Source: Candidatus Pelagibacterales bacterium (GTDB lineage Bacteria; Pseudomonadota; Alphaproteobacteria; TMED109). From it: a stretch of DNA of 35,040 nt. The position numbers and the translations under genes are program-made. Positions 12,624 to 28,761 of the stretch are shown one piece after another; positions within the stretch are counted from its first letter, which is position 1, and the number at the start of each line of letters is the position of its first letter. The DNA lies in the NCBI GenBank assembly GCA_002714055.1, contig PAWH01000005.1, forward strand, positions 7,975-43,014, read 5' to 3'. Under the pieces are notes generated by a model. The model searched no databases, was not told the DNA's origin, and saw only the letters and a program-made list of their open reading frames with translations.

Positions 12624-14403
12624 TTAATTTTTTTCATCAATTAGTTTTAAGAAATAATTTATTGAAATTAATGACATCGTAAATTGATCATATTCATAAT
12701 GTTTTTCTTCCATTAATTTTTTTAAATGTTTTTTTATTTCAGAAAAGTCTAAAAAGCTTATTTGAGACAATCTTTCACTATTTATTGTATCTTCGATATA
12801 TTCTGCCCAGTCATTTTTGAATAAATACCCTATAGGTAACCCCATTCTTTCAAAAGAATCATCTTTAGTTTTTTTTTTTATAATTTTTCTTTTTAAAAAA
12901 TTTAAAGTTTGAAAAATTGTTTTTCTATAACTAGAGTATTCTATTGGCATGTTAGTATTAGAACTTATTAATTTTGCAAGCTTTGGACTTAATTTTTTTA
13001 AACTTAATCTTTGAATTCTTGAATCAAACCTATATTCCCAAGGTAATCTTTGATAAAAATCAAATAAATCATTATCAAATAAAGGTGTTCTAATTTTTAT
13101 ACTAGAATTCATAGAAATAATATCAGAACGACTGTAATGTCTTGCTAAATCATGAAAAGTTAAAAATTCATATAAATCATTCTTAGAATTACAAAATTTT
13201 TTTCCTATATCTCTTATTTGTTCTAGTTCATGTCTTAATTTTTCCATCATTAACTTATAATTTTTCTTTTTTACAAAATCAAAAATATTAGCTCCTTTAG
13301 TTTTATATGGAATATTGTTCAAAAAATATTCAACTACGTTTTTAATTTTAACAGGGATTATTAAATCAAATTTTTTATTAATTAGTGTCAATTTTTTTCT
13401 AGGTAAATACATGCCTTGGAAAGCATAATCAAAACCATGACCATGTAAACAAACATCTACTTTTTTTTTAATATCCTTTCCATGATTATAAAATAAACAT
13501 TGCGGTTCATACGTTGCACTGGTTGAATAAATTGCTTCAGGAAAAGATTTTTTATAATGGTTTTTTTTATTTATAATAAAATAATGTGGAGTCTTAGCAA
13601 TACGCGCTGCTTCTTTAGCAACTTTAACTTCTCTATTTTTAAATGAATTTATTGTAAAAGTAGATAAATTAAAATTATTTTTTCTTGCACAAGCTAGTAT
13701 TAATCTGGTATCCATTCCTCCGCTTAAAAATAAACCAAATCTATTTTTATCAGACATTTTTTTTTTTTAAAGAATTTGTTAAGTGAAATATTAATTCATC
13801 ACTTGATTTATCAATATTTTTTTTGGTCTTTTGAATAAAATTAGGGTTCCAATATATTGTTTTGTATATTTTCTTTTCTTCAAATATTAATTTTGATGCG
13901 GGTGTTAATATTTTAACATTTTTGGCTGTTGTTTTTTCACCAAAATTTCTTCTAAATAATAGCAATTCAAATAACGAATCTTCATTTATTTTAAATAATC
14001 CTAGTTCTTTTAATCTAATAATTATTTCAAAAAGATTTAATGAAATCAAAAATATATTTTTATCTTTATAATACCATATAGTTGGAAAATTAAATCTACT
14101 TGAAATTATCTCAATTTTTTTTTTTGACAAAGAAATAATAACAAATTCACCGTCAACCTTTTTTAACCATTTATTTTTATTTTTATTATTTATAAATGAA
14201 AAAACAAAGTGTTTATTGCTAATTTTATTATTTATGATCGGATTACCTATAATGCATAATTTGTTATTAAAAAAATTATAAAAAGAAATATCTAAATTTT
14301 CTTTTTTATATTTTAAATAAGCAAAATCTTTTCCAAACTTTGACCAGATCTTGTTTTTATTCTTATATTTTGATATTTCTAAAATAAAACTAGGTAATGG
14401 CAT
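12624..14403 (-). pseudogene. AsnB-like amidoligase lacking the N-terminal Cys nucleophile, split by a frameshift in an A12 tract (genuine or a sequencing artefact)
   Basis: ORFs 13750-14403 and 12624-13757 overlap by 8 nt at T12 (+ strand 13757-13768). Removing one A gives ...ELIFHLTNSLKKKMSDKNRFGLFLSGGMDTRL. This parallels the two intact paralogues at the same position (..LISDVPLGSFLSGGIDSS and ..LYSDAKKCLFLSSGIDSS). The combined length of about 593 aa matches them. The N-terminus is MPLPSF, with no Cys2. Confidence 0.65.
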
Positions 14404-16182
14404 TTAACTTTTTAAAAAATCATTTACTATTTCTTTTCTAACTAAAAATCTTGTCCAACTTGGGTTTTGATTTAACTTCTTTTCTTTCAGATTATTAGTT
14501 ATTGAATCAGAAGAATATTTTTTATTCTTTTGTAAAAAATCTTCAAAAGGATATACAAACCCTTTTTTAAAACCAAAAATAAGTTTCTTTGGTAAGTATC
14601 GTTCTAAAATTTTCCTAAATATGAATTTTTGCGTTTTATATTTGTTATATTTAAATTTAGAAGCACTAAATAATGAAATTAAATTAGAGTTTAAATATGG
14701 AGATCTAAATTCATAGCCTGCTCTCATTCCACCATGATCAAACGTGATAAGTCGGCTGTTTGGCATCACATTTTTAAAATCAAAATTTTCTACACTTTTA
14801 AATAAATTATTTCCAGTAAAACTAGAAAAACTTTTTTTAGCCCACTCCTCCATATAAGGTATTTCTTTTAACTGACTTATTAAATTAGTATTTTTTAAAG
14901 CGATATATAAAAACTCATTTTTTACACCAAAAATATTTCTAAAAATTTCTATCTTACTATTGTAGTTATTTAATGGTTTTAGAATGAATGATATAAATAA
15001 TCTAAGTTTCTCTGGCATTGCATACAGATTCTTATATTTTTTTATAAATGTTTGTTTTCTATAACCTGAAGATATTTCGTCGCCACCCATACCAGTTATA
15101 CCTACTTTATATTTAAGTTTTTTTGCTATAAGAGCCATTTGATAAGTGGGAATAATTGTTAAATTATCATTAGGTTGCCCGTACATAGTTAATAAATAGT
15201 TTGTATCAACTTTTTTATCATCTAATTTACATGGTATTATTTGATGGGGTAGTTTTAAATAGTTAGCTATTTTTTTAGCTTCTTTAGTTTCATCTAAAGA
15301 TTTAGATTTGCCAAAACCTACTGTTATTGTATGAATATTATTTTTTAACTCTTTTGAAATTATTGAAGCTAATAAAGAAGAATCAATCCCACTTGAAAGA
15401 AAAAGACACTTTTTTGCATCTGAATACAAGCGTGATTTTACACTTTTAATTATCTCATTATTTATATCATCAATATAATTCTCATTAATATCTACTAACT
15501 CTTTATGATTTATATTCTCGCTATAATTAAATTTTTTTTTAATAACTCCTTTTTTTAACAAAATAGCTGTTGCTGGCTCAACACAAAAGATATTTTTATA
15601 CGCAGTGTATGGGCTTGGGACATATCCTAAAGCTAAATAAGCTGCAAGTTTTTCATTATTTAAATCTTTTTCTTTTTTTAACAATTTAACTAAAGGATAT
15701 ATTTCTGAAGAAATATAGACGCCATCTTTTGTAGTTGCATAAAACAGTTGTTTTTCTCCAAATTTATCTCTTGCTATCCAAATATTTTTTCCATTCCAAA
15801 TAACAAATGCAAACATTCCATCTAAATAATTAAGGCAAGAATTATTAAGGTTTTGCCAATATTTTAATAAAACTTCGGTATCAGAATTTGAGCAAAATTT
15901 AATACCTTTTAGTTCTAACTCTTTTTTAATTTCAAGAAAATTATATATTTCTCCATTATAAGCTAATACATGCTTATTATTAATCATTGGTTGGTTTCCT
16001 TTTAAAGATAAATCCATAATAGATAATCTAGTGTGTCCTATGTAAACTCCTTCTTTTTTATTGTACCATTCCCCATCAGAGTCTGGGCCTCTGTGTTTTA
16101 ACATTTTTTTACCTTCTCTTCCTAATAAAATATCTTTTTTATTTAAAGGTCTTTTTAAAATAAATGAAAATATTCCACACAT
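14404..16182 (-). CDS. asnB: Asparagine synthase (glutamine-hydrolysing) family amidotransferase
   Basis: MCGIFSF N-terminal Cys2, SDTEVLL, and a variant PP-loop FLSSGIDSS. 592 aa. Confidence 0.8.
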   Translation of the reverse strand: MCGIFSFILKRPLNKKDILLGREGKKMLKHRGPDSDGEWYNKKEGVYIGHTRLSIMDLSLKGNQPMINNKHVLAYNGEIYNFLEIKKELELKGIKFCSNSDTEVLLKYWQNLNNSCLNYLDGMFAFVIWNGKNIWIARDKFGEKQLFYATTKDGVYISSEIYPLVKLLKKEKDLNNEKLAAYLALGYVPSPYTAYKNIFCVEPATAILLKKGVIKKKFNYSENINHKELVDINENYIDDINNEIIKSVKSRLYSDAKKCLFLSSGIDSSLLASIISKELKNNIHTITVGFGKSKSLDETKEAKKIANYLKLPHQIIPCKLDDKKVDTNYLLTMYGQPNDNLTIIPTYQMALIAKKLKYKVGITGMGGDEISSGYRKQTFIKKYKNLYAMPEKLRLFISFILKPLNNYNSKIEIFRNIFGVKNEFLYIALKNTNLISQLKEIPYMEEWAKKSFSSFTGNNLFKSVENFDFKNVMPNSRLITFDHGGMRAGYEFRSPYLNSNLISLFSASKFKYNKYKTQKFIFRKILERYLPKKLIFGFKKGFVYPFEDFLQKNKKYSSDSITNNLKEKKLNQNPSWTRFLVRKEIVNDFLKS

Positions 16183-16333: not shown

Positions 16334-17002
16334 CTATTTTCTTAAATATTTTTTTACTAATCTTAAATCAGATAAATAATTAATATCTATGGAAACCTTC
16401 TTCTTCATTTTATAAGGAATGATTTTATTACCATAAATTTTACCTTTTATAACCAAATTTTTTTTCATTATAAGAATAGCAGGGCCATTTCTTATTATAT
16501 ATTCTTTATTTTTATTATAAAAATCGATTTTATTATTAAAAAAACTTAAATACCCGTTTTTTTCAATCATAATTTTAGATTTTTCTCTAACATTTTTTTT
16601 TGTAGTTACACTTACGAGTGTGTCTGGTTTTTTTTTATAAAATAACTTTATTGCACTATCAATATCTTTGCCGGTTCTTAAAGGTGACGTTGGTTGTAAT
16701 AAAACAATTAATTTAACTTTTTTAAAAATTTTCTTTTTAATTACATGCTTTATTACTTCTAACATATTAACTTTATCACCTGATAATTTTTTCGGACGAA
16801 CAAAAGGAGCTTTTATATTTAAATCCTTTGATAACTTAATTATTTTTTTACTATCTGTAGTTACAACAATATCATCAAGTAATTTTGAATTTTTTGCAGC
16901 TTCTAATGTATATTGCACTAATGGCTTTCCATTTAATTTAAAAATATTTTTATTTCGTATTCTTTTTGAACCAGATCTAGCAGGTACTAATCCTATTATC
17001 AT
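16334..17002 (-). CDS. Acylneuraminate cytidylyltransferase family (CMP-ulosonic acid synthetase; NeuA/PseF/LegF-like)
   Basis: MIIGLVPARSGSKRIRNKNIFKLNGKPLVQYTL N-terminus and LLQPTSPLR. 222 aa. Confidence 0.8.
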   Translation of the reverse strand: MIIGLVPARSGSKRIRNKNIFKLNGKPLVQYTLEAAKNSKLLDDIVVTTDSKKIIKLSKDLNIKAPFVRPKKLSGDKVNMLEVIKHVIKKKIFKKVKLIVLLQPTSPLRTGKDIDSAIKLFYKKKPDTLVSVTTKKNVREKSKIMIEKNGYLSFFNNKIDFYNKNKEYIIRNGPAILIMKKNLVIKGKIYGNKIIPYKMKKKVSIDINYLSDLRLVKKYLRK

Positions 17003-17003
17003 T

Positions 17004-18005
17004 TTAATTTATTTTGCTATATAACTCGTGTTGGTAGCCAAGGACTTCTGTGTGTCTTAACCTTTCCTCATTTGTAAAGTTTCCTGGTAAATTAATTTTT
17101 TTTAATTTTTTTAAAAATGTTGGTAATTTTTTTTGAAAAATAGTGGTGTAATGTAAATATAAAATTATTCGTGGATTATTTCTTTTATTTTTTAACGGTC
17201 TACTACCATAATGATAACATGAACAAGTATCAACAAATGCCATTTGTTTTTTTGGTCCGGTTAATTCAATTGGGTTTGTGTTAAGATTAAGTTTTTCTAT
17301 ATATGAATCAGGAATTTTCATATTTCTTTTATTTACTAGTTTTAATCGTTTCAATTTTGAATATATAGTTTTAGATATATCGCTCGGATAAATGGTTAAA
17401 GGGCCAGAATATTTGTTCACAGGATATAAATTAATAAAAAGTTTTACTTGTTTTAGATCCTCACCATCTAAATGAAAACTTTGAGAATTTCCTTGGGAAA
17501 AATTTTCATTTGGTGAATACCATAAATTTGCAGTATTTAAAACTGGTTTTGTTCCTAAATATTTAGAAATTATATCAATAATATTTTTATCACAAGAAAA
17601 ATCAAAAATAGGGGTTGCAGTAGGATCTGTTAAATCAAGAACAATACTTCTTAAAAAATCTTTTTTAAATTTTTTGTTTAATAAATTATTTTTATTTCTT
17701 TTAAAGATTTCGTTTGCACAGTTAATTGCTTTTATAAATTTTTTATTATTTCCATTTGTTATTAAAAAACCTTTCTTTTTATCAATTGAATATTTTAAAT
17801 TTTTTTTTATATATTTTCTTTTACTAAATATTCTGTAATTAAGTATTTTTGAAAAAAAAGTATATAACTTAATAGCAATAAAATTATCTGGCACAAAATG
17901 CATACCTATATATTGAGGTTTTTTTATTAAACTTACCAACCTAGCAAAAAAGGTTTGTCCTGATTTAGGCAAGAAAGAAATTAATTTTTTTAAAAATTTT
18001 ATCAA
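17004..18005 (-). CDS. Putative Fe(II)/2-oxoglutarate-dependent dioxygenase (PhyH-like)
   Basis: HxD motif in SQSFHLDGED, followed by a distal His (CSCYHYGSRP). The start codon is TTG (18005-18003), overlapping the upstream stop as TTGA. 333 aa. Confidence 0.5.
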   Translation of the reverse strand: MIKFLKKLISFLPKSGQTFFARLVSLIKKPQYIGMHFVPDNFIAIKLYTFFSKILNYRIFSKRKYIKKNLKYSIDKKKGFLITNGNNKKFIKAINCANEIFKRNKNNLLNKKFKKDFLRSIVLDLTDPTATPIFDFSCDKNIIDIISKYLGTKPVLNTANLWYSPNENFSQGNSQSFHLDGEDLKQVKLFINLYPVNKYSGPLTIYPSDISKTIYSKLKRLKLVNKRNMKIPDSYIEKLNLNTNPIELTGPKKQMAFVDTCSCYHYGSRPLKNKRNNPRIILYLHYTTIFQKKLPTFLKKLKKINLPGNFTNEERLRHTEVLGYQHELYSKIN

Positions 18006-18896: not shown

Positions 18897-20388
18897 TTAC
18901 CAATCTTCTAGGACTGTTTTTCTAAGTATTGGGTCTGCTCGTTGTATATTTCTATCTATATAAAAAGAATCTCCTTTTATATGTTTAGTTGAAATTTCTT
19001 CAAATATAACTCCTGTTTTTGTTTTAAATGAATGAATATCTCTTCTTTGTATTAATAATGTGTCGCCTTTTTTCAAATCAAATGTTTCATCATTTCTTTT
19101 TACAGTCATACTTCCTGATAAAATATGAAATGTTTCTTCTTTTTTTTCATGATAATGTGAAGGGTGGGATTGGCCCGGTAGTTGAGCAATTAACTTTTTA
19201 CAATAATCTCTATTAATTATTGTTATTAGTAAAGCGCCAACTTTCTCGAATTTATCCATATCATAATGGTGCGACAACTCTATTTCGTAATTATTGCCAA
19301 TTGTAACATTGGCTTCATTAAACATTCCTTTAAAAATATGTATTAATCTTCTTATCTTATAAAAGTCTAGTTTTTTTGGAAAATCGATAATTGGCTCATT
19401 TTTTTTATAATTTTTTGTTGATTTAATTGAAATATTAAAATCACCAGAAGTTAATTGCTTATTTTGAACCGGCATAGCAAAATAAATTTTATCTTTTGAA
19501 ATTAATTCATTTTTTTTTTATTTCTTTTTTACAGTAGACTCCCCTTGCTAATTCCTTAATTGAGTTTACTTCTTCTTTAGTAAGTATTTTATTATCTTCT
19601 AAACCTAATATTTCTTTTGCTTCTTTAGATGAATCAATCCATCTGTCTAATTGTAATTTATTTAATGAATATTTGTTTAATGGTTTATTAATATCATCAA
19701 TACCAACGTGTCTTTCTAATATATCCGCCCCTGCAGTTACTGCCATTTTTACAGTTTCAAAATCCTCTGGGTTTTCATGACCTGAATAACCAATGCAAAT
19801 ATCGGGGTATCTGTTTTTATATTTTTTAATTAAATTTAAATTTAAATTTTTTCTTGGCGTGGGGTAGATACTTACACAATGCATTAGCGCAAAATTTACA
19901 TTTCTATGAATAAAAAAATTATATACTTTATCAACACTTTCTAGGTTATGACCTCCAGTAGAAATAATTACAGGTTTTTTTGTTGAACTAATTTTTTCTA
20001 ATAATGGCCAATCTGACATACTGCAACTGGCAACTTTTATAATAGATAAATCTTGTTTTTGACATAAATCAACTGAAGATTCATCAAAAGGGGTTGAAAT
20101 TGGGATTAACCCTTTTTTTATAATATATTTAACTAGAACATTGAAATCTTTTATACTTAATTCAGTATCCAAGAATCTTTTTACATGTTTATTTTCGTTG
20201 CTTTTAATGTATTTAGGATGAATAAAATTTTTTAAATTTCTATATTGCAATTTAACAGCTCCTTTTATCGAGAATCTTTTTGCAACTATTGCACACTGAT
20301 CGATTATTTTCTTTGCTGATAAAATACTTCCAGAATGATTATTAGCCATTTCAAAAATATATAAATCTTTAAAAATTAAATTATTCAT
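18897..20388 (-). pseudogene. Divergent NeuB-family ulosonic-acid synthase fused to a SAF domain and a D-lyxose-isomerase-like cupin, split by a frameshift in an A10 tract (genuine or a sequencing artefact)
   Basis: ORF 19507-20388 has a NeuB-like TIM-barrel (FEMANNHSGS, KLQYR, IKVASCSM, IISTGG, CVSIYPTP, GYSGHE, ERHV) and stops inside the start of its SAF domain (ARGVYCKKEIKKK*). The frame of ORF 18897-19475 is open upstream to the tract (NELISKDKIYFA-MPVQNKQLTSGDF). Removing one A of T10 (+ strand 19510-19519) gives KKEIKKNELISKDKIYFAMP, which parallels KRKIKKNQIIEFDDLTFKKP in the bona fide neuB of this window. The C-terminal cupin has HPSHYHEKKEETF ... IHSF ... EEISTKHIKGDSFY. Confidence 0.65.
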
Positions 20389-21814
20389 TTTTTAACTTTT
20401 CAACAGTTCTTTCAATTGCATCCTTTTTGTCATTTTTTTTATTAAATTTAAAAAAGCTAATTAAATCTCTTAAAGGTTGTGTTAATTTCCAAGAAGTAGA
20501 ATTCAAAATATTTTGAATTTCTGTATTTGGGCTATATAACTTATATTTGTCGCTTAAATTGTCTACATGAATCCAGTTTTTTTTATTAAAATCTTTAAAG
20601 TTAATTTTATAAATATCTCCAGTGTATCTATCTGACACAAAAAAAGAATTATTTGAAGTTCGGATAATACTATGTGGATTTACGGAAGTTTTATACAAAT
20701 CTGAATAATGCCACTCGTTATCAATTTTTTTTATACCTTTAATAATTCCTGAACAAAAATCAGAAAAAATAAAAACTCCATCCCAATTTTTATCATTTCC
20801 ACGAAATGTTCCTCCTGCTATAACTGAACAACCTTCTTTGTGATTCCATTCAATTATTGGCCATTTATATTTGATATTTTTCCTGTTTCTCAATGTCTCA
20901 GAACGGCAATCTTCTTCACTAGCAAACATATCTTTTCTACAATGTAGTCCTTCAAATTTATTCCAACCGTAATTTTCCTTACCTGAACTTTCATTTGATT
21001 GAAAATTAATTTCTTCATAATTATCCCATCCTGTATCAGCAATATATAAATCTCCATTTTCAGTATCAAAAACAATTCCAGATTTAGCGGGGGATCTTAA
21101 ACCATACGCCCATATTTCAGATCTTTTCCCCTTAGATTCATGATAATAAGGATTGCTCTTAGGTATTTCATAACCATTCTCCATAGAATCAACATCAATT
21201 CTTAAAATTTTTCCCTCTAACTTTTTTAAATTTTGCGCAGTACCACTTGGATTACCTCCAATATCCCCGTCTCCGATTCCAATATAGAGAAAATTATCTT
21301 TAGGACTGAAATCTAATGAACCAGCTGCATGTTCATAAGTATGTTTTTCAATATCAATTAAAATTTCTTCATTTACAGAAATAAGACTTTTACAATCATC
21401 AGTAACATTGAATCTACTTAAAACAAAGTTGCCAAATTTGTTTGTATAAGTTACATAAACTTTTTTTTTAATCTCGCCAAATCTATATGAAAAAGCAAAA
21501 TCTAAAATTCCTTCTTCCATTGAATTACCTTGTTCTTCTCCTCCCAACAAAACTTTATTTCTTAAATCAGCAAAAGGTTCTTGAAGTTCATAATGTTCAT
21601 TATCTTTATATACTAATAATTTTGCTATACCTGAATGTCTACCAAATAAAATAAAGCTATTTTTACTATTCTCTCCACAGTTTGTAGGAAAAGGTGTCAT
21701 TAATGTAAATGGAAACAAACCCTTTTTATAAAAAGAAACATCAACTTGATTAGCAAAACAAGTATTAAAATATAAAAAAAAGAAAAAAGAAGTTATTATT
21801 AGTTTTTTTAACAT
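20381..21814 (-). CDS. PQQ-dependent (glucose/sorbosone-type) sugar dehydrogenase-like beta-propeller with a signal peptide
   Basis: N-terminus MLKKLIITSFFFFLYFNTCFANQ. Family motifs GIGDGDIGGNPSGTAQNLKKLEGKILRID, EIWAYGLRSPAK and NYEEINF....GKENYGWN. 477 aa. Confidence 0.7.
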   Translation of the reverse strand: MLKKLIITSFFFFLYFNTCFANQVDVSFYKKGLFPFTLMTPFPTNCGENSKNSFILFGRHSGIAKLLVYKDNEHYELQEPFADLRNKVLLGGEEQGNSMEEGILDFAFSYRFGEIKKKVYVTYTNKFGNFVLSRFNVTDDCKSLISVNEEILIDIEKHTYEHAAGSLDFSPKDNFLYIGIGDGDIGGNPSGTAQNLKKLEGKILRIDVDSMENGYEIPKSNPYYHESKGKRSEIWAYGLRSPAKSGIVFDTENGDLYIADTGWDNYEEINFQSNESSGKENYGWNKFEGLHCRKDMFASEEDCRSETLRNRKNIKYKWPIIEWNHKEGCSVIAGGTFRGNDKNWDGVFIFSDFCSGIIKGIKKIDNEWHYSDLYKTSVNPHSIIRTSNNSFFVSDRYTGDIYKINFKDFNKKNWIHVDNLSDKYKLYSPNTEIQNILNSTSWKLTQPLRDLISFFKFNKKNDKKDAIERTVEKLKNE

Positions 21815-21819
21815 ATTTA

Positions 21820-22779
21820 TTAATTAATTATTTTTTTTGATTTTAAAATTTGTTTATTAATTTCAATGCTATTTTTAAAATCATGTAACGGAAATTTTTT
21901 ATTTTTTAAACAAATATTCAAGAAGTAATCTATAGACTTTTCTAATGAATTATTCATTATATCTTCTTCAGATATTTTCCATGTTTTAGAAACAGAAGAT
22001 CTACAATATCTTTTAGTGTGAATATTTTTTTTATGTCCTATCAAAAGTTGTGCTTTATTATCATAAATCTCGAAAATTCCATTTGTTCCAATTAATTTAA
22101 TATGAAAATCAAAAGCTGTCACATAGGAAAGATAAATAAATAATTTTAAATTATTTGGATATTTGGCTATAACAGAACAATTATCATAAGAGCTTGTTTC
22201 TTTTACTATATTACTAGAATAATGAATAATTTCTTTTGGTTTATTAAAAAGAATTGAGAAAAGATCTATATAATGTATTCCAACATTCTCAACAAGACCT
22301 AATTTATTTAATGTTTTTTTAGATCTCCATGATTTCTTATAATTAATATTTTTCCCAAACAAATGCGATGATGAAATATAAGCATGGTAAATATTTCCTA
22401 ATTTTTTCCTTTTTATTAAATCATTTAGAATATTAAATATTTTACCATATCTTAAATTAAAATTAAAAAACGTTTTTTCTGGATCATTTTTTAACTTGTT
22501 AAGTTCTTTTAGTGATACTGCCGGAGGTTTTTCACAAAAAATATATCCCTTAAATCTTTTCTCAAAAAACTTTAAATATTTATAATGAGTATAATTCGGA
22601 GATAATATTAATATTACATCACAATTAATTAAATCATTTAAATTTCTAGTAAATTTAATTCCATTAATTTTTTTTGGATAGTAAATTTTACTGATAAATA
22701 CATTTTTTCTTTTTTTAAAAATTTCTAGAATTTTTTTAGCATGATTCTTATAACCAATTGCACCAACATTTAATTTCAT
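21820..22779 (-). CDS. Gfo/Idh/MocA-family NAD(P)-dependent oxidoreductase
   Basis: KLNVGAIGYKNHAKK Rossmann start and the IFCEKPPAVSLKEL (EKP) motif. The start is set at ATG 22779, one nt after the upstream stop, rather than the GTG at 22800. Confidence 0.75.
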   Translation of the reverse strand: MKLNVGAIGYKNHAKKILEIFKKRKNVFISKIYYPKKINGIKFTRNLNDLINCDVILILSPNYTHYKYLKFFEKRFKGYIFCEKPPAVSLKELNKLKNDPEKTFFNFNLRYGKIFNILNDLIKRKKLGNIYHAYISSSHLFGKNINYKKSWRSKKTLNKLGLVENVGIHYIDLFSILFNKPKEIIHYSSNIVKETSSYDNCSVIAKYPNNLKLFIYLSYVTAFDFHIKLIGTNGIFEIYDNKAQLLIGHKKNIHTKRYCRSSVSKTWKISEEDIMNNSLEKSIDYFLNICLKNKKFPLHDFKNSIEINKQILKSKKIIN

Positions 22780-22780
22780 T

Positions 22781-23899
22781 TTATAAACCACACCTATCAC
22801 ATGGATTATATTTATGTCTTTTCTTTTCTAGGTGAAGTTTTCTTAATTTATTTAATTCTTTGCTATGCCAAATTTGTTTAATTGTTTTATTACTCAAATT
22901 TCCAGGTGATAATAAGCTTTTATAATCAGCATCACATGGATTGCAAACACCATCGAACCAAATATATAATCTTTCCCAAAGATATACACATGGATGATTA
23001 TTTTTTTTATTTGGTATATTCTCATATGTATTCCATCTTTCTTGACACTGAACATATGCAACGTTATCAACTATTTTAGACCAAAATTTTTTAAATTCTT
23101 TTTCATTTTGTTCTTTCTTAAATTTAACACCAGAGACTCTTATTTCTAACCCAGAGTTTTTATAATACTTGTTTCTAATATCTGCTAAAAGTTTAATATT
23201 TTTTAATACCTGCGTATATTTTCCACCCTTTCTTATCTCCTCATATTGTTTTTCTATATGTGAATCTATTGAAATTACAACAATATTTATATTTGAATTT
23301 AATATTTCATGACATAATTTTTCATTTAATTTTGTTGCATTAGTATTTAATTTAACATCAATAAAGTTTTTCTTTTTTGAAACATATTTTATCATTTGAG
23401 AAATCTTTGGGTGGAGCAAAGGTTCACCTCTACTTGCAAGTGTTATGGCAGATGTCCCATTGCTTGAAGCTTCATCAATTATTTTTTTAAAAAGATTGAA
23501 ATTCATAAATCCCATAAAAGGTTTTTTAGTAAAACTCTTATCAATTTGAAAACACATTACACATCTTAAATTGCATACTGAAGTAGGTTCAACAAGAAGA
23601 TATACAGGAAATTTAGAAATAATTTTTTTTTCAGGATAAATATTTAATTTATATCTATAAATTAAATATTTTATCCATTTTTTTTCATCCATTCTTTCTA
23701 AATGAAAATATTCTTGAGGAGTTAAAATAAAAGGAAATTTATTATTATTTAAACTATTAATTAATTCATCAATAATTATTCGATCTTCTGATACTAATTT
23801 TAAACTTTTTGCTAATTTAATAATTTTTTTTAAATTAATAAAAGGTGTTTTTTTATTTTGTAAAAACCTCAATCCAGAAGGATGTTTAAAATTTACCAT
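22781..23899 (-). CDS. Radical SAM enzyme with a C-terminal SPASM/twitch-like Cys-rich domain
   Basis: CxxxCxxC in VEPTSVCNLRCVMCFQ, with SRGEPLLHP. C-terminal cysteines HPCVYLWERLYIWFDGVCNPCDADY ... NPCDRCG. 372 aa. Confidence 0.8.
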   Translation of the reverse strand: MVNFKHPSGLRFLQNKKTPFINLKKIIKLAKSLKLVSEDRIIIDELINSLNNNKFPFILTPQEYFHLERMDEKKWIKYLIYRYKLNIYPEKKIISKFPVYLLVEPTSVCNLRCVMCFQIDKSFTKKPFMGFMNFNLFKKIIDEASSNGTSAITLASRGEPLLHPKISQMIKYVSKKKNFIDVKLNTNATKLNEKLCHEILNSNINIVVISIDSHIEKQYEEIRKGGKYTQVLKNIKLLADIRNKYYKNSGLEIRVSGVKFKKEQNEKEFKKFWSKIVDNVAYVQCQERWNTYENIPNKKNNHPCVYLWERLYIWFDGVCNPCDADYKSLLSPGNLSNKTIKQIWHSKELNKLRKLHLEKKRHKYNPCDRCGL

Positions 23900-23977: not shown

Positions 23978-25108
23978 CTAGATACATTTGTTTTTTTTTT
24001 TTTTAATTTTATAAATTTTTTTTTTTAAAATAAGATATAAATTATTCATATTTACTACACTTCTTAATTTTTTACTTTTTATCCAAGAAAAATTCAAATT
24101 TACAAAATCTAGATTTATTATTGGTATATTACATATTTCTGCAACAGAAACAGTTGTTGAATTACCACATAAATATATGTCTGATATAGGAATCAGATCT
24201 ATATAAGATTTTTTTGAGATAATGAAATTATAATTTTTTATTAAATTTTTGTAGAAATTTAAATTAGTTTTCGGGTGAAAAATTAAAATAACATTCTCTT
24301 CAATACGGTGTAAAACTTCGAAAATAATTTTTAAGTGTTTTAACTGTGTTTTCATAGAAATTATGTTGTGTTCTGGATTATGAGGAACTGAAAATAAAAT
24401 AATTTTCTTTTTTTTAATAAATTTCTTATTACTAAAGAATTCTTTTACAATATTTTCTTTATTATTTATTGAATTTAATAAATTATCATATTCCAAGGCT
24501 CCAAAATTCAGAATTTTTTCTCTTTTTAATCCTAAGTTTAACATATGTTTAATTTCTTTTTTTCCTTTAGCTATTATATGATCACTTTGACTAGCTCCAA
24601 CGCACCATGGTTTTTTTGGAAGCATGCCTACAAAATGTAAACATAAGATTAAAGGTCCAGGTGAAAATAATAATCTTCCGTATTTAGTTTTACATAATTG
24701 GTTTCTAAAAAAAAAAGAAATTAATAAATTTAGAAAACTCATTAAATTATCTATTCCAACCTTAAATTCTTTTTTGTTCTTCCTTGTCCACGAAACCATA
24801 TCTAATGATGGCAGTAAAGAAGATGTTGTTGTAATTATTGTTTTAATTTTTAATTTATTAGCAACTTTTAATATAGGTGGGATTGGTCCAAGTTCTCTGT
24901 CACCAGGCAGCAAAATTGCTATAGGCTTAAAATTATTAAATAATTTATAAAAAAAATTATAATCCTTTCTAAGTTTTTTTATTGTAAAAAAAAAACTTTT
25001 AAGATTAACAATATTTTGAATTTCTTTTGTTTTTAAAAAAATAAAATTAATTTTTTTCTTTATGCAATAATGTTTAAATATTATTGTTTTATTAGTACCT
25101 AAAATCAT
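23978..25108 (-). CDS. Putative capsular-polysaccharide biosynthesis / glycosyltransferase-like protein (KpsS/LpsZ-type). The N-terminus may extend to about 25210.
   Basis: C-terminal LCGNSTTVSVAEICNIPIINL resembles the NST..EA...P motif of capsule-synthesis proteins. The frame stays open for 40 codons upstream of ATG 25108; the last 34, counted from an ATA at 25210-25208, read IKKKKIVFLVPRHETSWWQHIFQYYLLKKDFFPI. There is no ATG/GTG/TTG in that stretch. Confidence 0.45.
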   Translation of the reverse strand: MILGTNKTIIFKHYCIKKKINFIFLKTKEIQNIVNLKSFFFTIKKLRKDYNFFYKLFNNFKPIAILLPGDRELGPIPPILKVANKLKIKTIITTTSSLLPSLDMVSWTRKNKKEFKVGIDNLMSFLNLLISFFFRNQLCKTKYGRLLFSPGPLILCLHFVGMLPKKPWCVGASQSDHIIAKGKKEIKHMLNLGLKREKILNFGALEYDNLLNSINNKENIVKEFFSNKKFIKKKKIILFSVPHNPEHNIISMKTQLKHLKIIFEVLHRIEENVILIFHPKTNLNFYKNLIKNYNFIISKKSYIDLIPISDIYLCGNSTTVSVAEICNIPIINLDFVNLNFSWIKSKKLRSVVNMNNLYLILKKKIYKIKKKKNKCI

Positions 25109-25229: not shown

Positions 25230-26615
25230 TTAAATTGATTTTCTATTTTTTTTATAATTTAAAATAATTTGCTTTATAATTTTAATTGTTTTTGCTTTTA
25301 AATTATGTGGCCTAGAATCTAGATAATGCTTAAAAATATCCTCTGACCCAAAATAATAATTAAATTTTTTATCTTTAGAATTATTTATACATTTATTTAT
25401 TTTATTTGATAAATCTAAAGGATTATTTGCAATAAAAAAATTTTTTTGAAACTTTTTAAAATAAACATTCTTTCTTTCAACTCCTACTGCTTCATCAAAA
25501 TTTGGAATTATAGGTTTGCATCCTAATGCTAGAGCTTCCAATAAAACTGTAGAATTAAAGCCGATAACATTTATAGAATTTTTTATTAAATAAATTGATG
25601 GTTTGTTTGTTATAACTAGGTTCTTTATACTTTCAATATCTTTTCCAGAAACTTTTTTTATAACATTTTCTATTTCATTTATCCACCAGTCTGCCCAATT
25701 CTTGGGTTTTATATAAAAAGTAATATTTGCATTATTTAACGCACTTAAAATAAATGTTTTATGCGTGTTAAAAAAAAGTTTTGAGAAACCTTCGTCATAA
25801 TTCTTTGAAAAGTAATGAGACCTTCTATTTTTTGGAACAATATTGCCTGAATAATGACCAAATGAAAATAGAGTAAAAAATTTTTTGTTTACTATTTTTT
25901 GTTTTTTAATTTCTTGAAATTTTAACATACCTGATGAATAAATATTTTTTTTATCTATCAATTTAGATTTAATAAATAAATCTCTAACAATTTTATTTGG
26001 TGCAACAACAGCTGTTCCTTGAAATTTTTGTTTAATTTTTTTTAAATGTTTTGCTCTAAAATTAATATGACCTCTGTCAGTTATAGATTGTTCTTTATGA
26101 AGACATATAAAAGGTATGCCTCCTTTATGAAATCCTGATGCCCATTCTTGTTCCTGACTATAATGTATTGCGCATGTTAAAGCACAGTCAATCTTTGTAA
26201 AAAAATTTATTGTTCTAACAATATTGGATACAAAAATAGATTTTTTTCTTCTTTCATTTAAAACTTTTTTTTTTGTTTTTAAATAATAATATTGGTCAGC
26301 GGATTTGCCCCAAAAACCAAGATCCTCATATCTTATTTTTTTATAATTCTTTTCTATTTGAGCATTAATAGGATTTGTATTAAATAAGGAATTTATTCTA
26401 TTGTAAATAAAATCAGAAATTATAATTAAACAAATATTCTTTTCTCTTTCTAATAACTTGACGCTATCAGCCCATCTGTGATGACTAAAAATAATTATTC
26501 TTAAACTCGACCTCTTTTTAAAAAAAATTAATTTTAAAAAAAACAAACTTATAAAAATTCCTAAAATAAATCCAAAGAATTTATTCTTTAAAATAATTTT
26601 AATTAATTTAATCAA
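25230..26615 (-). CDS. Putative membrane-anchored capsular-polysaccharide biosynthesis / glycosyltransferase-like protein
   Basis: N-terminal TM helix FFGFILGIFISLFFLKLIFF. C-terminal VIGFNSTVLLEALALGCKPIIP motif. TTG start (26615-26613) overlaps the neuC stop as TTGA. 461 aa. Confidence 0.45.
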   Translation of the reverse strand: MIKLIKIILKNKFFGFILGIFISLFFLKLIFFKKRSSLRIIIFSHHRWADSVKLLEREKNICLIIISDFIYNRINSLFNTNPINAQIEKNYKKIRYEDLGFWGKSADQYYYLKTKKKVLNERRKKSIFVSNIVRTINFFTKIDCALTCAIHYSQEQEWASGFHKGGIPFICLHKEQSITDRGHINFRAKHLKKIKQKFQGTAVVAPNKIVRDLFIKSKLIDKKNIYSSGMLKFQEIKKQKIVNKKFFTLFSFGHYSGNIVPKNRRSHYFSKNYDEGFSKLFFNTHKTFILSALNNANITFYIKPKNWADWWINEIENVIKKVSGKDIESIKNLVITNKPSIYLIKNSINVIGFNSTVLLEALALGCKPIIPNFDEAVGVERKNVYFKKFQKNFFIANNPLDLSNKINKCINNSKDKKFNYYFGSEDIFKHYLDSRPHNLKAKTIKIIKQIILNYKKNRKSI

Positions 26616-27763
26616 TAGGAGATTTGTTTTTGTATTTTAACCTTAACTTTTTGAAGAATATTTGATATTTTCTTCCCGGAACTACCTTCGCCATAAATAT
26701 ATTCTTTTTTATATTTTTTTTTCTTAATTTGTTTTAATATAGAATTATATATTTCTTCTTTCTTATAATCACAATCAATTGTATTTTTTCCTCTTTCTCT
26801 TCTTGATTGCCTTGTTCCTATATTAACAACTGGTGTTCCTATATACGCGCCTTCCCTTATACCGCTTGAAGAATTGCCAACTAAACAACTGGTTTTTGAC
26901 ATTAATTTCATGTATATTTCTGGTGGAAAATTTTTATAAAATCTTGCATTAGTTATTTTTCGTTTTTCTCTGTATTTTCTAAATATTCTAGAAATATCAT
27001 CTGAACCCGCATCTGGGTTTGGCCAAAGAATTATTTTTTGCATATTTATTTTAATAATTGCCTCCATAGTAGCTTCTATTTGTCTTGTAGTGTTATTACA
27101 TTCAGTTGTAACAGAATGCTGAGAAACCATAATAAATGGTTTTTGAAAATTAATTTTATCTCCTACACCTGAATCCAAAAATTTATTATTTAAATTAAAT
27201 TTTTTTTCATTTAAAACATTTTTAGCTAAATCGATTCTTGGGCAACCAACTAGAAAAACGGTTTCTTTTTTTTCTCCTAATTTTATTATTCTTTCTTTAG
27301 CATCTTTGCTTGCAGGAAAATGTATATGTGAAAACTTTGTTATTGCATGTCTTATGCTTTCATCAATTGTCCCTGAAACTTCACCGCCCATTGTATGTGC
27401 TATAGGAATATTCATATAACTAGCTGCAATAGAAGTAGCCATATTCTCATATCTGTCTCCAACAATTACAACTATATCTGGTTTTAAGTGTTTAAAAACT
27501 GTTGGAAGCTCAAGTAAGCCCATGCCGGTTGACTTTGCCATCGTTTCTACAGTCTCGCCCTCAACAAGCATATGAACTTTATGATTTATTTTAAATCCGT
27601 CTTTTTTAATCAAATCAATAACGGATCCAAATCTATCTATTAAAGCTGATGCTCCAACAACAATTTGTAAAGTTAAATTCTTATTTTTAGATACACTTTC
27701 TAGAACAGATTTAATACTGCTATAATTAGCTCTGGATGATATAACTGCACAAATTTTTTTCAT
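26612..27763 (-). CDS. neuC: UDP-N-acetylglucosamine 2-epimerase (hydrolysing type)
   Basis: VGDRYENMATSIAASYMNIPIAHTMGGEVSGTIDESIRHAITKFSHIHF, typical of NeuC/LegG-type epimerases. 383 aa. Confidence 0.85.
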   Translation of the reverse strand: MKKICAVISSRANYSSIKSVLESVSKNKNLTLQIVVGASALIDRFGSVIDLIKKDGFKINHKVHMLVEGETVETMAKSTGMGLLELPTVFKHLKPDIVVIVGDRYENMATSIAASYMNIPIAHTMGGEVSGTIDESIRHAITKFSHIHFPASKDAKERIIKLGEKKETVFLVGCPRIDLAKNVLNEKKFNLNNKFLDSGVGDKINFQKPFIMVSQHSVTTECNNTTRQIEATMEAIIKINMQKIILWPNPDAGSDDISRIFRKYREKRKITNARFYKNFPPEIYMKLMSKTSCLVGNSSSGIREGAYIGTPVVNIGTRQSRRERGKNTIDCDYKKEEIYNSILKQIKKKKYKKEYIYGEGSSGKKISNILQKVKVKIQKQISY

Positions 27764-27766
27764 ATT

Positions 27767-28750
27767 TTAATAATAATCTCCAATTTTTAGGATATAATCA
27801 TCTTTCAAATTTTTTTTTGCTCTTTTTCCTAATATTTGCTTATATTTTCTAGGGCTAATTCCATATCCAGGTTTTTTAAAAGTTAAATCATCAAATTCAA
27901 TTATTTGATTTTTTTTTATTTTTCTCTTTATAACTATACTTTTTTCAAAAATCATTTTCATTTTTTTTAATTTTCTTAAATTATTCTTATTTACATCATT
28001 TTTTATAATAATTTGAGCTTCATTAAGGCAATTAACCATGTTTCGAAATTCATCTGGCTCCAAAGCATTAAAAGCATCGCTACCATACATCTTTCTTGAC
28101 AAAGTTAAATGTTTTTCAATAGCTGTTGTTTTATAAAATACAGAAAGTATGGCAGCTGTAATTCCAATTGTATGATCTGAAAAACCTACTGGTCTATTAT
28201 ATTTCTTTTTTATTTCAGCAATAATATTCAACCCGGCATCTTTTAAAGTACAAGGGTATAAGGATGTGCATTGCATTATAGTTAATTTTTTAATATCTTT
28301 TAATTTTTTTACTGCTAAATCTAATTCTTTCCAATTAGACATTCCTGATGATAAAAAAGTTGGTTTATTAATTTTATTTATTTTTTCAATTAAAGGAATA
28401 TTTGTAATTTCTCCTGATGGTATTTTATAATTTTTAACTTTAATTTTTTCTAATAAATCTATTGCTTCTAATGAGAATGGAGATGATAAAAAGTTTAATT
28501 TCTTTTTTTCAACATAATTTTTTAATTTTTTCCATTGATTAATATTAAAACTAGTTCTTTTAAAATAATCATATCTTTTTTCTTTTTTAAAATATTTAGG
28601 AGAAGGAGCATTTCTTAAAGTTTCTGCTTCAGCAATATGTGTTTGAAACTTAACAGTAGTAGCCCCACAGTCTTTTGCTTTATCTACTAATTTAAAAGCT
28701 AATTTTAATGATCCGTTATGTACTGAACCAATTTCTGCAATAATGTCCAT
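27767..28750 (-). CDS. neuB: N-acetylneuraminate (nonulosonate) synthase with a C-terminal SAF domain
   Basis: IIAEIGSVHNGSL, VKFQTH, KIPSGE, FLSSGMS, CTSLYP, GFSDHT, EKHLT, and SAF tail KRKIKKNQIIEFDDLTFKKPGYGISP. Confidence 0.85.
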   Translation of the reverse strand: MDIIAEIGSVHNGSLKLAFKLVDKAKDCGATTVKFQTHIAEAETLRNAPSPKYFKKEKRYDYFKRTSFNINQWKKLKNYVEKKKLNFLSSPFSLEAIDLLEKIKVKNYKIPSGEITNIPLIEKINKINKPTFLSSGMSNWKELDLAVKKLKDIKKLTIMQCTSLYPCTLKDAGLNIIAEIKKKYNRPVGFSDHTIGITAAILSVFYKTTAIEKHLTLSRKMYGSDAFNALEPDEFRNMVNCLNEAQIIIKNDVNKNNLRKLKKMKMIFEKSIVIKRKIKKNQIIEFDDLTFKKPGYGISPRKYKQILGKRAKKNLKDDYILKIGDYY

Positions 28751-28761
28751 AACAACAAATT

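What the first reader, a model, noticed from the sequence alone, without database searches (positions are those of the whole stretch)
20381..23899. Radical SAM/SPASM enzyme, Gfo/Idh/MocA oxidoreductase and a signal-peptide PQQ-type sugar dehydrogenase sit inside the cytoplasmic glycan array
These three adjacent genes are atypical for O-antigen or capsule loci.
- The radical SAM protein has the CNLRCVMC cluster motif after an N-terminal extension of about 100 aa, plus a Cys-rich C-terminal SPASM/twitch-like region. Enzymes of this type acting on carbohydrates include the BtrN-type radical dehydrogenases. That is established family knowledge; relevance here is inference.
- The next gene is an inositol/sugar dehydrogenase-type Gfo/Idh/MocA enzyme.
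- The third is a soluble glucose/sorbosone-dehydrogenase-like beta-propeller with a clear Sec-type signal peptide. It would act outside the cytoplasm, unlike every other biosynthetic enzyme here.

Together they could form an oxidation, epimerisation or deoxygenation branch, or a post-export oxidation step of the glycan. I saw no PQQ biosynthesis genes in the window.
Basis: partly seen in the sequence, partly recalled or inferred. Interest (0 to 1): 0.6.

Follow-up and report, generated by a model that had tools for sequence, protein, structure and literature searches.

The report
Radical-SAM/reductase pair in sugar-acid island
Two of the three genes form a widespread but unstudied enzyme pair that probably reshapes a sialic-acid-like surface sugar in marine bacteria, and the third, a secreted propeller protein, is a local add-on that may not use the PQQ cofactor.

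Summary
The three ORFs exist exactly as described: a radical SAM/SPASM protein (22781-23899), a Gfo/Idh/MocA oxidoreductase (21820-22800) and a GSDH-type propeller with an N-terminal signal-like segment (20381-21814), all on the minus strand. They are not one conserved unit. In 80 metagenome loci with a homolog of the radical SAM gene, a Gfo homolog lies directly downstream in 65 of 73 assessable loci. The propeller occurs in 1 of 80. The radical SAM protein has only four invariant C-terminal cysteines, so it likely holds one auxiliary cluster ('twitch'). Its best profile match among solved structures is BtrN. The pair usually sits with NeuB-type synthases and CMP-transferases, and relatives are fused to a cytidylyltransferase or an NAD dehydrogenase. 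I read it as a redox tailoring pair (epimerisation or deoxygenation) for a CMP-activated ulosonic acid. The propeller belongs to the Hedgehog-interacting-protein-like branch. It keeps the catalytic His and one Arg but lacks the Asn and the C-terminal Arg pair of PQQ enzymes. The genome does carry pqqBCDE, with a pqqA-like ORF, on another contig. Verdict: observation confirmed, interpretation partly supported, moderate interest.

The parts
22781..23899 (-). Radical SAM enzyme, 372 aa: N-terminal four-helix domain (about residues 20-91), radical SAM core, C-terminal one-cluster (twitch-type) domain
   Evidence: Pfam PF04055 and PF13186; invariant Cys in 24 homologs; BtrN is the best PDB profile match; AF2 model pLDDT 85.7
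23552..23575 (-). CNLRCVMC, the CX3CX2C motif of the SAM-binding 4Fe-4S cluster (C109, C113, C116)
   Evidence: Translation; invariant in alignment A1
22790..22990 (-). Auxiliary-cluster domain, residues 304-370, with invariant C304, C322, C367, C370 (spacing Cx17Cx44Cx2C); C319 is not conserved
   Evidence: this region aligns to BtrN residues 163-236 of 4m7s
21820..22800 (-). Gfo/Idh/MocA NAD(P)-dependent oxidoreductase, the conserved partner of the radical SAM gene; likely true start is the ATG at 22779
   Evidence: Pfam; FCEKPP and IHxxD invariant in 13 partners; adjacent in 65 of 73 loci
20381..21814 (-). Exported six-bladed GSDH/HHIP-like propeller, 477 aa, with a C-terminal helical tail; a lineage-specific insertion between the Gfo and NeuB genes
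   Evidence: Pfam PF07995 84.3 bits; AF2 pLDDT 81.0; Foldseek HHIP and YliI; present in 1 of 80 loci
21752..21814 (-). Signal-peptide-like N-terminus of the propeller (residues 1-21)
   Evidence: Sequence; helix 2-17 in the model; similar N-termini in the 4 closest relatives. No predictor was run.
20468..20494 (-). SWKLTQPLR motif in the C-terminal tail of the propeller
   Evidence: In the six-frame genome and all fetched loci it occurs only in this subfamily: the window copy, the paralog and L012
19507..20388 (-). Short NeuB-type ulosonic acid synthase (293 aa, no SAF domain)
   Evidence: Pfam NeuB 2.1e-47; below the NeuB and PseI NCBIfam cut-offs
18897..19475 (-). Cupin (lyxose-isomerase-like), fused to the NeuB synthase in L012, L013 and L015
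   Evidence: Pfam; fusions of 502, 518 and 547 aa
18002..18880 (-). SAM-dependent methyltransferase of the same sub-operon
   Evidence: Pfam Methyltransf_23
17004..18005 (-). 333-aa protein with no Pfam family; weak PhyH-like (Fe/2-oxoglutarate dioxygenase) similarity across the HxD...H motifs
   Evidence: No Pfam hit; BLASTP E 9e-5 to the island's PhyH protein
16334..17002 (-). PseF-like CMP-sugar cytidylyltransferase that closes the sub-operon
   Evidence: Pfam CTP_transf_3; TIGR03584 122 bits, below its cut-off of 205.7

Best explanation
The finding holds two separate things. (1) The radical SAM gene and the Gfo/Idh/MocA gene are a conserved two-gene redox tailoring unit of cytoplasmic glycan pathways, most often pathways that build and CMP-activate a sialic-acid-like (ulosonic) sugar. 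The radical SAM enzyme has the SAM cluster and a single auxiliary 4Fe-4S cluster, like BtrN. Inferred mechanism: it abstracts a hydrogen atom from a sugar carbinol carbon and yields a keto intermediate, either directly (BtrN-type dehydrogenation) or after loss of a neighbouring hydroxyl (AprD4-type diol dehydration). The NAD(P)H-dependent Gfo partner then reduces the ketone. The net result is epimerisation or deoxygenation of the ulosonic acid or its precursor. In this window the product would come from the NeuB+cupin synthase, be methylated and possibly hydroxylated, and be activated by the downstream cytidylyltransferase. (2) The propeller is a lineage-specific, co-packed insertion. It is exported, belongs to the HHIP-like branch of the GSDH fold, and most likely acts on or binds the glycan at the periplasmic side. 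Whether it uses PQQ is open. Shown: domain content, conserved adjacency, cysteine pattern, gene context, fusions, patchy distribution, the residue pattern of the propeller, and presence of pqq genes. Inferred: substrate, chemistry, export and cofactor.
Confidence: 0.6

Rival explanations
1. One reading: the three genes form one branch, in which the radical SAM enzyme and the Gfo enzyme modify the sugar in the cytoplasm and the exported propeller is a PQQ-dependent dehydrogenase that oxidises the glycan after export.
For: The propeller gene is wedged into the operon with a 5-nt gap and an 8-nt overlap. It holds the same position in L012. Relatives at 73% and 55% identity exist. The genome has pqqBCDE above cut-offs and a pqqA-like ORF, and pqqC is above its cut-off in 40 of 46 family genomes. 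The catalytic-type H162 and R240 are invariant. Pieces of all three genes occur in RNA libraries.
Against: The propeller accompanies the pair in 1 of 80 loci and in neither G032 nor G143. Ser241 replaces the Asn of the Arg-Asn pair, and the C-terminal Arg-x-Arg (QRIRDV in YliI) is NPH here. A member of its clade matches HHIP full-length at 4e-43 but matches PQQ enzymes only over the N-terminal part, at 2e-20. TIGR03606 scores 52 bits against a cut-off of 434.55. The family's genomes already have canonical full-length GSDH enzymes that could account for the pqq operon.
Confidence: 0.2
2. The radical SAM protein is a protein or peptide maturase (like anSME, SuiB or the tungsten-enzyme maturases) whose target is the adjacent Gfo-like protein or another protein, not a sugar.
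For: The adjacency to one protein family is strict (65 of 73), as for maturase-target pairs. SuiB and SkfB top the structural lists. The best NCBIfam partial hits are TIGR04317 and TIGR04311 maturases.
Against: Those NCBIfam hits cover only the radical SAM core and lie far below cut-off (98 against 380 bits). There is one auxiliary cluster, not the two of SuiB, anSME and other full-SPASM maturases (the two-cluster feature of those enzymes is recalled, not tested here). There is no PqqD/RRE Pfam hit at E <= 0.01. Only 78 nt lie upstream and the Gfo gene overlaps downstream, so there is no room for a precursor gene beside it. Fusions are to sugar-pathway enzymes. The Gfo partners keep ordinary catalytic motifs.
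Confidence: 0.1
3. The two enzymes act in the same pathway but not on the same carbon. The radical SAM enzyme alone is a radical epimerase (as reported for twitch enzymes of aminoglycoside pathways; recalled) and the Gfo enzyme oxidises another position, for example ahead of a DegT-type transamination.
For: DegT aminotransferase genes occur in 18 of 80 loci and in 13 of 32 long loci. The nearest solved Gfo relatives include WbpB, a UDP-sugar 3-dehydrogenase that feeds a transaminase (the WbpB function is recalled).
Against: DegT is absent from most loci, whereas the Gfo partner is nearly always adjacent and often overlaps the radical SAM gene. The fusion of a relative to another NAD dehydrogenase (P0336) points to a coupled redox step.
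Confidence: 0.15

Closest known systems
BtrN (2-deoxy-scyllo-inosamine dehydrogenase of butirosin biosynthesis; PDB 4M7T/4M7S), prototype 'twitch' radical SAM enzyme
   Different: The window protein has an extra N-terminal four-helix domain of about 90 aa and an obligate Gfo neighbour, and it sits in surface-glycan loci, not aminoglycoside loci. Identity is only about 20%. Its activity is unknown.
AprD4/AprD3 (radical SAM diol dehydratase and NADPH-dependent reductase; C3' deoxygenation in apramycin biosynthesis)
   Same: A radical SAM enzyme working with a dedicated nicotinamide-dependent reductase on a sugar (passages of PMC5461906). This mirrors the conserved radical SAM + Gfo adjacency here.
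   Different: Homology to AprD4 or AprD3 was not tested (no sequence or structure of them came up in any call). The pathway and organisms differ. The analogy concerns how it may work, not family membership.
CMP-Kdn / CMP-sialic-acid-type pathways (isomerase, NeuB-type synthase, KdsC-like phosphatase, cytidylyltransferase)
   Same: The pair is embedded in cassettes with a NeuB-type synthase, SIS isomerase or cupin, small HAD phosphatase and CTP_transf_3. The window sub-operon ends with a PseF-like cytidylyltransferase.
   Different: The synthase lacks the SAF domain and is fused or paired with a cupin. No component reaches an equivalog cut-off. Known pathways of this type have no radical SAM step, to my knowledge and in five full-text searches.
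Hedgehog-interacting protein (HHIP) propeller and soluble aldose sugar dehydrogenase YliI/Asd (PDB 2G8S)
   Same: Six-bladed GSDH fold. HHIP is best by phmmer (2e-13) and by Foldseek (2.5e-19). YliI is best by profile (7.5e-53) and by target coverage (TM 0.80). The catalytic-type His and the first Arg are kept.
   Different: Compared with YliI: Ser in place of the Asn of GIRNPQ, a 2-residue insertion, and no QRIRDV Arg pair. Compared with HHIP: a bacterial protein with a signal-like N-terminus, no EGF modules, and a unique helical tail with the SWKxTxPLR motif.

Membership tests
Radical SAM superfamily (PF04055) | CX3CX2C motif for the SAM-binding 4Fe-4S cluster within a partial TIM barrel | tested here: met
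   CNLRCVMC at residues 109-116, invariant in 24 homologs; Pfam 61.7 bits against a cut-off of 29.5; barrel-like alternation of strands and helices in the model
Full SPASM enzymes (two auxiliary clusters, seven or more conserved Cys) | Seven-cysteine C-terminal motif that binds two auxiliary 4Fe-4S clusters (definition recalled) | tested here: not met
   The Pfam SPASM model matches (43.7 bits), but only C304, C322, C367 and C370 are invariant; C319 varies. That is enough for one cluster.
Twitch radical SAM enzymes of carbohydrate pathways (BtrN type) | Single auxiliary cluster bound by four Cys in a shortened SPASM domain | tested here: met
   Four invariant Cys; this domain aligns to BtrN. 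The cluster itself is not testable here.
Twitch radical SAM enzymes of carbohydrate pathways (BtrN type) | Closer to BtrN than to peptide-modifying SPASM enzymes | tested here: inconclusive
Twitch radical SAM enzymes of carbohydrate pathways (BtrN type) | Oxidation of a sugar or cyclitol secondary alcohol with SAM cleavage | not testable with these tools
   Needs an anaerobic enzyme assay
RiPP or protein maturases (SuiB, SkfB, anSME) | Peptide-recognition (RRE/PqqD-like) domain or a precursor or target gene beside the enzyme | tested here: inconclusive
   No PqqD Pfam hit at E <= 0.01. The N-terminal domain is four helices and was not searched on its own. Only 78 nt lie upstream and the Gfo gene overlaps downstream. 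The Gfo protein as target is not excluded.
Gfo/Idh/MocA oxidoreductases | N-terminal Rossmann domain, C-terminal alpha/beta domain, EKP motif and catalytic His/Asp | tested here: met
   PF01408 38.7 bits, PF22725 56.6 bits; EKP at residue 90 and GIHYID at 176; invariant in 13 partners. No equivalog: TIGR04380 42 bits against a cut-off of 355.
PQQ-dependent soluble glucose/aldose dehydrogenases (PF07995; TIGR03606) | Family model above its cut-off | tested here: inconclusive
   Pfam GSDH 84.3 bits against 25, but over only part of the profile (45-227 of 332). NCBIfam TIGR03606 52 bits against 434.55.
PQQ-dependent soluble glucose/aldose dehydrogenases (PF07995; TIGR03606) | Catalytic His (sGDH His144) and the Arg of the Arg-Asn pair at the quinone oxygens (passages of PMC6881789) | tested here: met
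   H162 and R240 are invariant in 15 aligned sequences
PQQ-dependent soluble glucose/aldose dehydrogenases (PF07995; TIGR03606) | Asn next to that Arg, and the C-terminal Arg residues that hold the PQQ carboxylates | tested here: not met
   Ser241 (Ser or Ala in the window protein and its 3 closest relatives; Asn in the other 11, including the paralog). YliI QRIRDV and GRIRDI of canonical relatives align to VNPHSI. Caveat: the C-terminal alignments of the PQQ-bound 3DAS, 3A9H and 2ISM could not be seen.
PQQ-dependent soluble glucose/aldose dehydrogenases (PF07995; TIGR03606) | PQQ supply in the organism | tested here: met
   pqqB 369, pqqC 323, pqqD 73 and pqqE 549 bits, all above cut-offs, on contig C24; a pqqA-like ORF
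HHIP-like cofactor-free propellers | Full-length similarity to the HHIP propeller, including the C-terminal blades | tested here: inconclusive
   The window protein matches HHIP over residues 45-247 only. Clade member P0154 matches HHIP full-length at 4e-43. Foldseek's top hits are HHIP. Absence of a cofactor cannot be tested here.
Sec-exported proteins | Cleavable N-terminal signal peptide | tested here: inconclusive
   A basic n-region, a 12-residue hydrophobic run and small residues at -3 and -1 (C-F-A), conserved in relatives. No predictor or experiment.

The most novel reading that the evidence does not exclude
The radical SAM + Gfo pair carries out a radical-initiated deoxygenation or C-epimerisation directly on a (CMP-)ulosonic acid. 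No sialic-acid-like pathway is known to include such a step. It would generate new nonulosonic (or longer) acid isomers on the surface of abundant marine bacteria. In this lineage the co-packed exported HHIP-like propeller would be a new kind of periplasmic enzyme or lectin that oxidises or grips that acidic glycan after export, using PQQ through a non-canonical binding site.
Probability: 0.15. Interest if true: 0.75.

Novelty: new variant of a known kind. Interest (0 to 1): 0.45.

Why it matters
Sialic-acid-like sugars decorate bacterial surfaces and shape recognition by phages, grazers and hosts. Their known biosynthetic routes use no radical chemistry. This work shows an unnamed BtrN-like radical SAM family with a fixed NAD(P) partner. 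It recurs in hundreds of marine metagenome contigs yet in very few reference genomes, which fits strain-variable surface-glycan islands. Working out its reaction would add a new tailoring step, and probably new sugar structures, to this pathway class, and would give a new enzyme pair for glycoengineering. The exact stretch is near-identical in marine DNA runs of many studies, so the organism and its glycan are environmentally relevant. The propeller result is also a caution: a 'PQQ-dependent sugar dehydrogenase' label on HHIP-like bacterial propellers is not backed by the cofactor-binding residues.

Tried and rejected
- Complex prediction of the radical SAM protein with its Gfo partner returned no verdict (score 0.00). 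It says nothing either way.
- NCBIfam gave no family above cut-off for the trio or for 9 relatives and fusion proteins.
- Five literature searches found nothing on this pairing: 'radical SAM' with 'nonulosonic acid' (0 papers), with 'legionaminic acid' (2, judged irrelevant from the listing), with 'Gfo Idh MocA' (0), with 'twitch', 'polysaccharide' and 'epimerase' (0), and with 'sialic acid synthase' (3, judged irrelevant from the listing). Subscription journals are not in that library.
- Earlier-findings look-ups by place and by sequence gave nothing.
- I tried to read how PQQ-bound Asd structures (3DAS, 3A9H, 2ISM) align to the C-terminal blades of the HHIP-like clade, but the five alignments shown were all HHIP.
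- Read laying: all runs were contigs, no piece bridged a gene junction by the 31-letter rule, parts of the stretch had no cover in the RNA runs, and DNA carry-over in RNA libraries cannot be excluded.
- Pfam found nothing for the window ORFs 17004-18005, 23978-25108 (only a sub-threshold Epimerase_2 hit), 25230-26615, 5596-6285 and 13750-14403.
- I considered and dropped the idea that the about-445-aa GSDH proteins common in the family are orthologs of the window copy: the window protein does not find them at E <= 1e-20.

Full report
OBSERVATION. The window is AT-rich (about 23% GC). From 2866 to 35040 it is one run of minus-strand genes for glycan synthesis. The three ORFs of the finding are real and lie at the stated coordinates. 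Pfam gives Radical_SAM and SPASM for 22781-23899, the Gfo/Idh/MocA N- and C-terminal domains for 21820-22800, and GSDH for 20381-21814, all above the curated cut-offs. The CNLRCVMC motif is residues 109-116. The propeller begins with a basic, then hydrophobic, then C-F-A segment. The structure model shows this as a helix ahead of the propeller. No signal-peptide predictor was available. The genes are tightly packed: a 5-nt gap between Gfo and GSDH and an 8-nt overlap between GSDH and the next gene. The Gfo start is more likely the ATG at 22779 than the GTG at 22800.

SURROUNDINGS. Directly downstream on the same strand lie a short NeuB-type synthase without a SAF domain (19507-20388), a cupin (18897-19475), a methyltransferase, a 333-aa protein with weak PhyH-like similarity (E 9e-5) and a PseF-like cytidylyltransferase (16334-17002). 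Upstream lie two proteins with no family, then NeuC, a full NeuB and another cytidylyltransferase (26612-29496). The whole 69,335-nt contig is about 23% GC against 31.0% for the genome. It also holds a third NeuB and cytidylyltransferase set, an ABC exporter, and a NusG-like gene at the head of the long operon. The trio therefore sits inside a very large, compositionally distinct glycan island with several sialic-acid-like cassettes.

IS THE TRIO A UNIT? No.
- An alignment of 24 homologs of the radical SAM protein (A1) was used to scan metagenome contigs. 599 stretches matched a pattern, 567 were confirmed as relatives, and the best 80 were kept as loci.
- A tblastn of 31 window proteins against these 80 loci shows a Gfo homolog directly downstream on the same strand in 65 of the 73 loci that have at least 300 nt downstream. 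The eight exceptions are L021, L022, L048, L049, L063, L070, L079 and L089.
- The same adjacency holds in G032, a genome of the same family (overlapping genes), and in G143, a closed genome of the same class (abutting genes).
- The propeller was found in 1 of 80 loci: L012, the closest relative, with 89% identity for the radical SAM protein. There it is only 54% identical, while the other shared genes are 71-99% identical.
- Neither G032 nor G143 has a propeller gene beside the pair.
- With the window propeller as query, only G000's two copies match well among 46 genomes of the family. Two others give weak hits of 36-37% identity.
- In the 43 loci with at least 600 nt beyond the Gfo gene, the next gene is NeuB in 8, a cytidylyltransferase in 4, the propeller in 1, and genes with no counterpart in the window in 30.

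THE RADICAL SAM PROTEIN.
- Cysteines: in A1 the invariant cysteines are C109, C113 and C116, and only C304, C322, C367 and C370 besides. C319 varies. Four C-terminal cysteines fit one auxiliary cluster, that is, a twitch-type domain and not a full SPASM domain.
- Sequence placement: a profile of A1 finds BtrN as the best solved structure (E 2.4e-16), aligned through this domain. Next come CteB (2e-10), anSME (2.3e-9), MoaA and DesII.
- Naming: no NCBIfam model reaches its cut-off for the protein (best 98 bits against 380) or for nine relatives.
- Abundance: the family is large in metagenomes. 2205 proteins scored E <= 0.001 among 6661 candidates, and 2630 cluster representatives scored E <= 1e-30 with the profile. 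It is rare in reference genomes: 2 of 45 other genomes in the family and 1 of 400 other genomes sampled in the class. That fits a gene of variable surface-glycan islands.

CONTEXT AND FUSIONS.
- NeuB-like genes occur in 40 of 80 loci and in 25 of the 32 loci of at least 10 kb. Cytidylyltransferases occur in 17 of 80 (9 of 32) and DegT aminotransferases in 18 of 80 (13 of 32).
- Pfam on 112 neighbouring ORFs from 11 long loci (11 of the 32; chosen for length and diversity) shows recurrent partners: SAF-less NeuB, SIS_2 isomerase, small KdsC-like HAD phosphatase, CTP_transf_3, SDRs, glyoxalase, and in some loci Capsule_synth, ABC exporters or sulfation genes.
- In L012, L013 and L015 the NeuB and cupin genes are one fused gene, so the two window genes work together.
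- Longer relatives are fused to a cytidylyltransferase (P0330), a 2-hydroxyacid NAD dehydrogenase (P0336), an FkbM methyltransferase (P0329) or an unknown 490-aa region (P0244).
- The Gfo partners keep FCEKPP and IHxxD in all 13 aligned sequences. Their nearest solved relatives are inositol 2-dehydrogenases, and WbpB is also listed.
- The link to ulosonic acids is frequent but not obligate. G143 and G032 have the pair in other glycan contexts with no NeuB within 10 kb.

MECHANISM (INFERRED). The radical SAM enzyme resembles BtrN and always has an NAD(P) oxidoreductase next to it. A documented precedent is AprD4, a radical SAM diol dehydratase, with its NADPH-dependent reductase AprD3, which together deoxygenate a sugar (passages of PMC5461906). 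I therefore propose that the radical SAM enzyme makes a keto intermediate at a sugar carbinol, directly or after dehydration, and that the Gfo enzyme reduces it. The net result would be epimerisation or deoxygenation of the ulosonic acid or its precursor. The cytidylyltransferase fusion suggests the substrate is near the CMP-activation step. None of this chemistry is shown. A complex prediction for the two proteins gave no verdict and is not used.

THE PROPELLER.
- Placement: by sequence, the nearest solved proteins are Hedgehog-interacting protein (2e-13) and then E. coli YliI (1.4e-11). The model (pLDDT 81.0) is a six-bladed propeller (residues 24-406) with a helical tail. Foldseek puts HHIP first by E-value (2.5e-19; the top entries are HHIP bound to heparin or a GAG mimic) and YliI first by target TM-score (0.80). 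A compact member of its broader clade (P0154) matches HHIP over its full length at 4e-43, but matches PQQ enzymes only over the N-terminal part, at 2e-20.
- PQQ reference residues: passages of PMC6881789 name His144 of sGDH as catalytic, an Arg-Asn pair at the quinone oxygens, and C-terminal Arg (such as Arg408) and Lys377 at the PQQ carboxylates. Passages of a 2026 preprint use the His, the Arg-Asn pair and a C-terminal Arg in a nine-residue PQQ signature, and report that only 483 of 2,290 six-bladed propellers had all nine.
- Residues here: in the alignment of 15 sequences, H162 and R240 are invariant. Position 241 is Ser or Ala in the window protein and its three closest relatives, and Asn in the other 11, including the paralog. 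The Arg-x-Arg motif (QRIRDV in YliI, GRIRDI in canonical relatives of this family) aligns to VNPHSI. NCBIfam TIGR03606 scores 52 bits against a cut-off of 434.55.
- PQQ supply is not the obstacle. pqqB, C, D and E are above cut-offs on contig C24, with a pqqA-like ORF upstream (the PqqA motif is recalled). pqqC is above its cut-off in 40 of 46 genomes of the family. Those genomes also carry canonical full-length GSDH enzymes.
- Paralog: a second copy (41% identity) lies about 30 kb away on the same contig. It is transcribed divergently from the operon head and sits beside two PMT_2 (GT-C) genes and a VTT/DedA gene. These act at the periplasmic face (family knowledge).
- Tail motif: both copies and the L012 copy share a C-terminal SWKxTxPLR motif that is found nowhere else in the genome or in the fetched loci.
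- Reading: an exported, lineage-specific accessory protein that acts on or binds the glycan outside the cytoplasm, with cofactor use open.

PRESENCE AND EXPRESSION. The 4.6-kb stretch is held near-identically (half or more of its sampled words) by 17 marine DNA runs. The 20 runs that hold any part come from 15 studies. Contigs from three RNA-labelled libraries (one labelled RNA only by guess) lie with 0-1 differences on parts of the radical SAM, Gfo, propeller and NeuB genes. None bridges a gene junction, and DNA carry-over is possible. This is a weak hint of expression only.

KNOWN OR NEW. Five full-text searches found no paper that links a radical SAM enzyme to nonulosonic, legionaminic or sialic acid synthesis or to a Gfo/Idh/MocA partner (for the five papers listed I saw only the search listing). 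The library lacks most subscription journals. Earlier notes of this scan (AI notes) describe BtrN-like radical SAM enzymes in CMP-ulosonic cassettes of other genomes. They agree with this reading and were partly re-tested here through my own context analysis. The fixed Gfo partner is, as far as those snippets show, an addition.

VERDICT. The conserved, unstudied radical SAM + Gfo pair is a new variant of the twitch-type sugar-modifying radical SAM enzymes. The propeller is an HHIP-like add-on whose PQQ label is doubtful. Interest is moderate (0.45).

Noticed in passing
G000 contig C24, locus L004 4622-7924 (minus strand): A complete pqqB, C, D, E operon above NCBIfam cut-offs, with a small upstream ORF whose last 24 residues look like PqqA. 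pqqC is above its cut-off in 40 of 46 genomes of the family, so PQQ synthesis is a core trait of this group.
   Followed up: yes
G000 contig C34 59900-61249 (+), outside the window (L005 1243-2592): A second signal-bearing GSDH/HHIP-like paralog (41% identity). It is divergent from a NusG-like gene and a 202-aa unknown protein at the operon head, and sits next to a 445-aa polytopic membrane protein, two PMT_2 GT-C glycosyltransferases and a VTT/DedA protein.
   Followed up: partly
window 18897-20388; L012 11248-12756; L013 6894-8450; L015 7559-9202: The SAF-less NeuB synthase and the cupin are one fused protein (502-547 aa) in three related loci. In the window they are separate genes in different frames with a 31-nt spacer. 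The cupin may replace the SAF domain of ordinary NeuB enzymes, or the window gene may be split.
   Followed up: partly
window 20468-20494 and the C-terminal tails of relatives: An SWKxTxPLR motif lies in a predicted helical tail after the propeller, conserved in the window copy, the paralog, L012, P0122 and P0123, with a looser RW.WTEP form in P0126, P0127 and P0131. Its function is unknown.
   Followed up: partly
window 17004-18005 (-): A 333-aa ORF with no Pfam family aligns weakly (E 9e-5) to the island's PhyH-type dioxygenase across HxD and distal His motifs. It may be a sugar hydroxylase of the sub-operon.
   Followed up: partly
whole contig C34 (69,335 nt), window included: The entire contig is about 23% GC against 31.0% for the genome. 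It carries at least three NeuB-type synthases, four CTP_transf_3 cytidylyltransferases, three asparagine-synthase-like amidotransferases (window 7573-9489, 12624-13757, 14404-16182) and an ABC exporter. It is one giant variable glycan island.
   Followed up: partly
proteins P0330, P0336, P0329, P0244: Relatives of the radical SAM protein occur as fusions with a cytidylyltransferase, a 2-hydroxyacid NAD dehydrogenase, an FkbM methyltransferase and an unknown 490-aa N-terminal region.
   Followed up: partly
L083, L091, L011 (G032), L104 (G143): A fused ABC exporter (ABC_membrane + ABC_tran, about 590 aa) lies next to or near the radical SAM + Gfo pair in four otherwise different loci.
   Followed up: no
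G028 contig C2 2264-2973: The pqqC match in this relative carries six in-frame stops (3 TGA, 3 TAA) and falls below the cut-off. It may be a pseudogene.
   Followed up: no
L004 (G000 contig C24): Translations of this contig contain many X residues, so the assembly holds ambiguous bases there.
   Followed up: no
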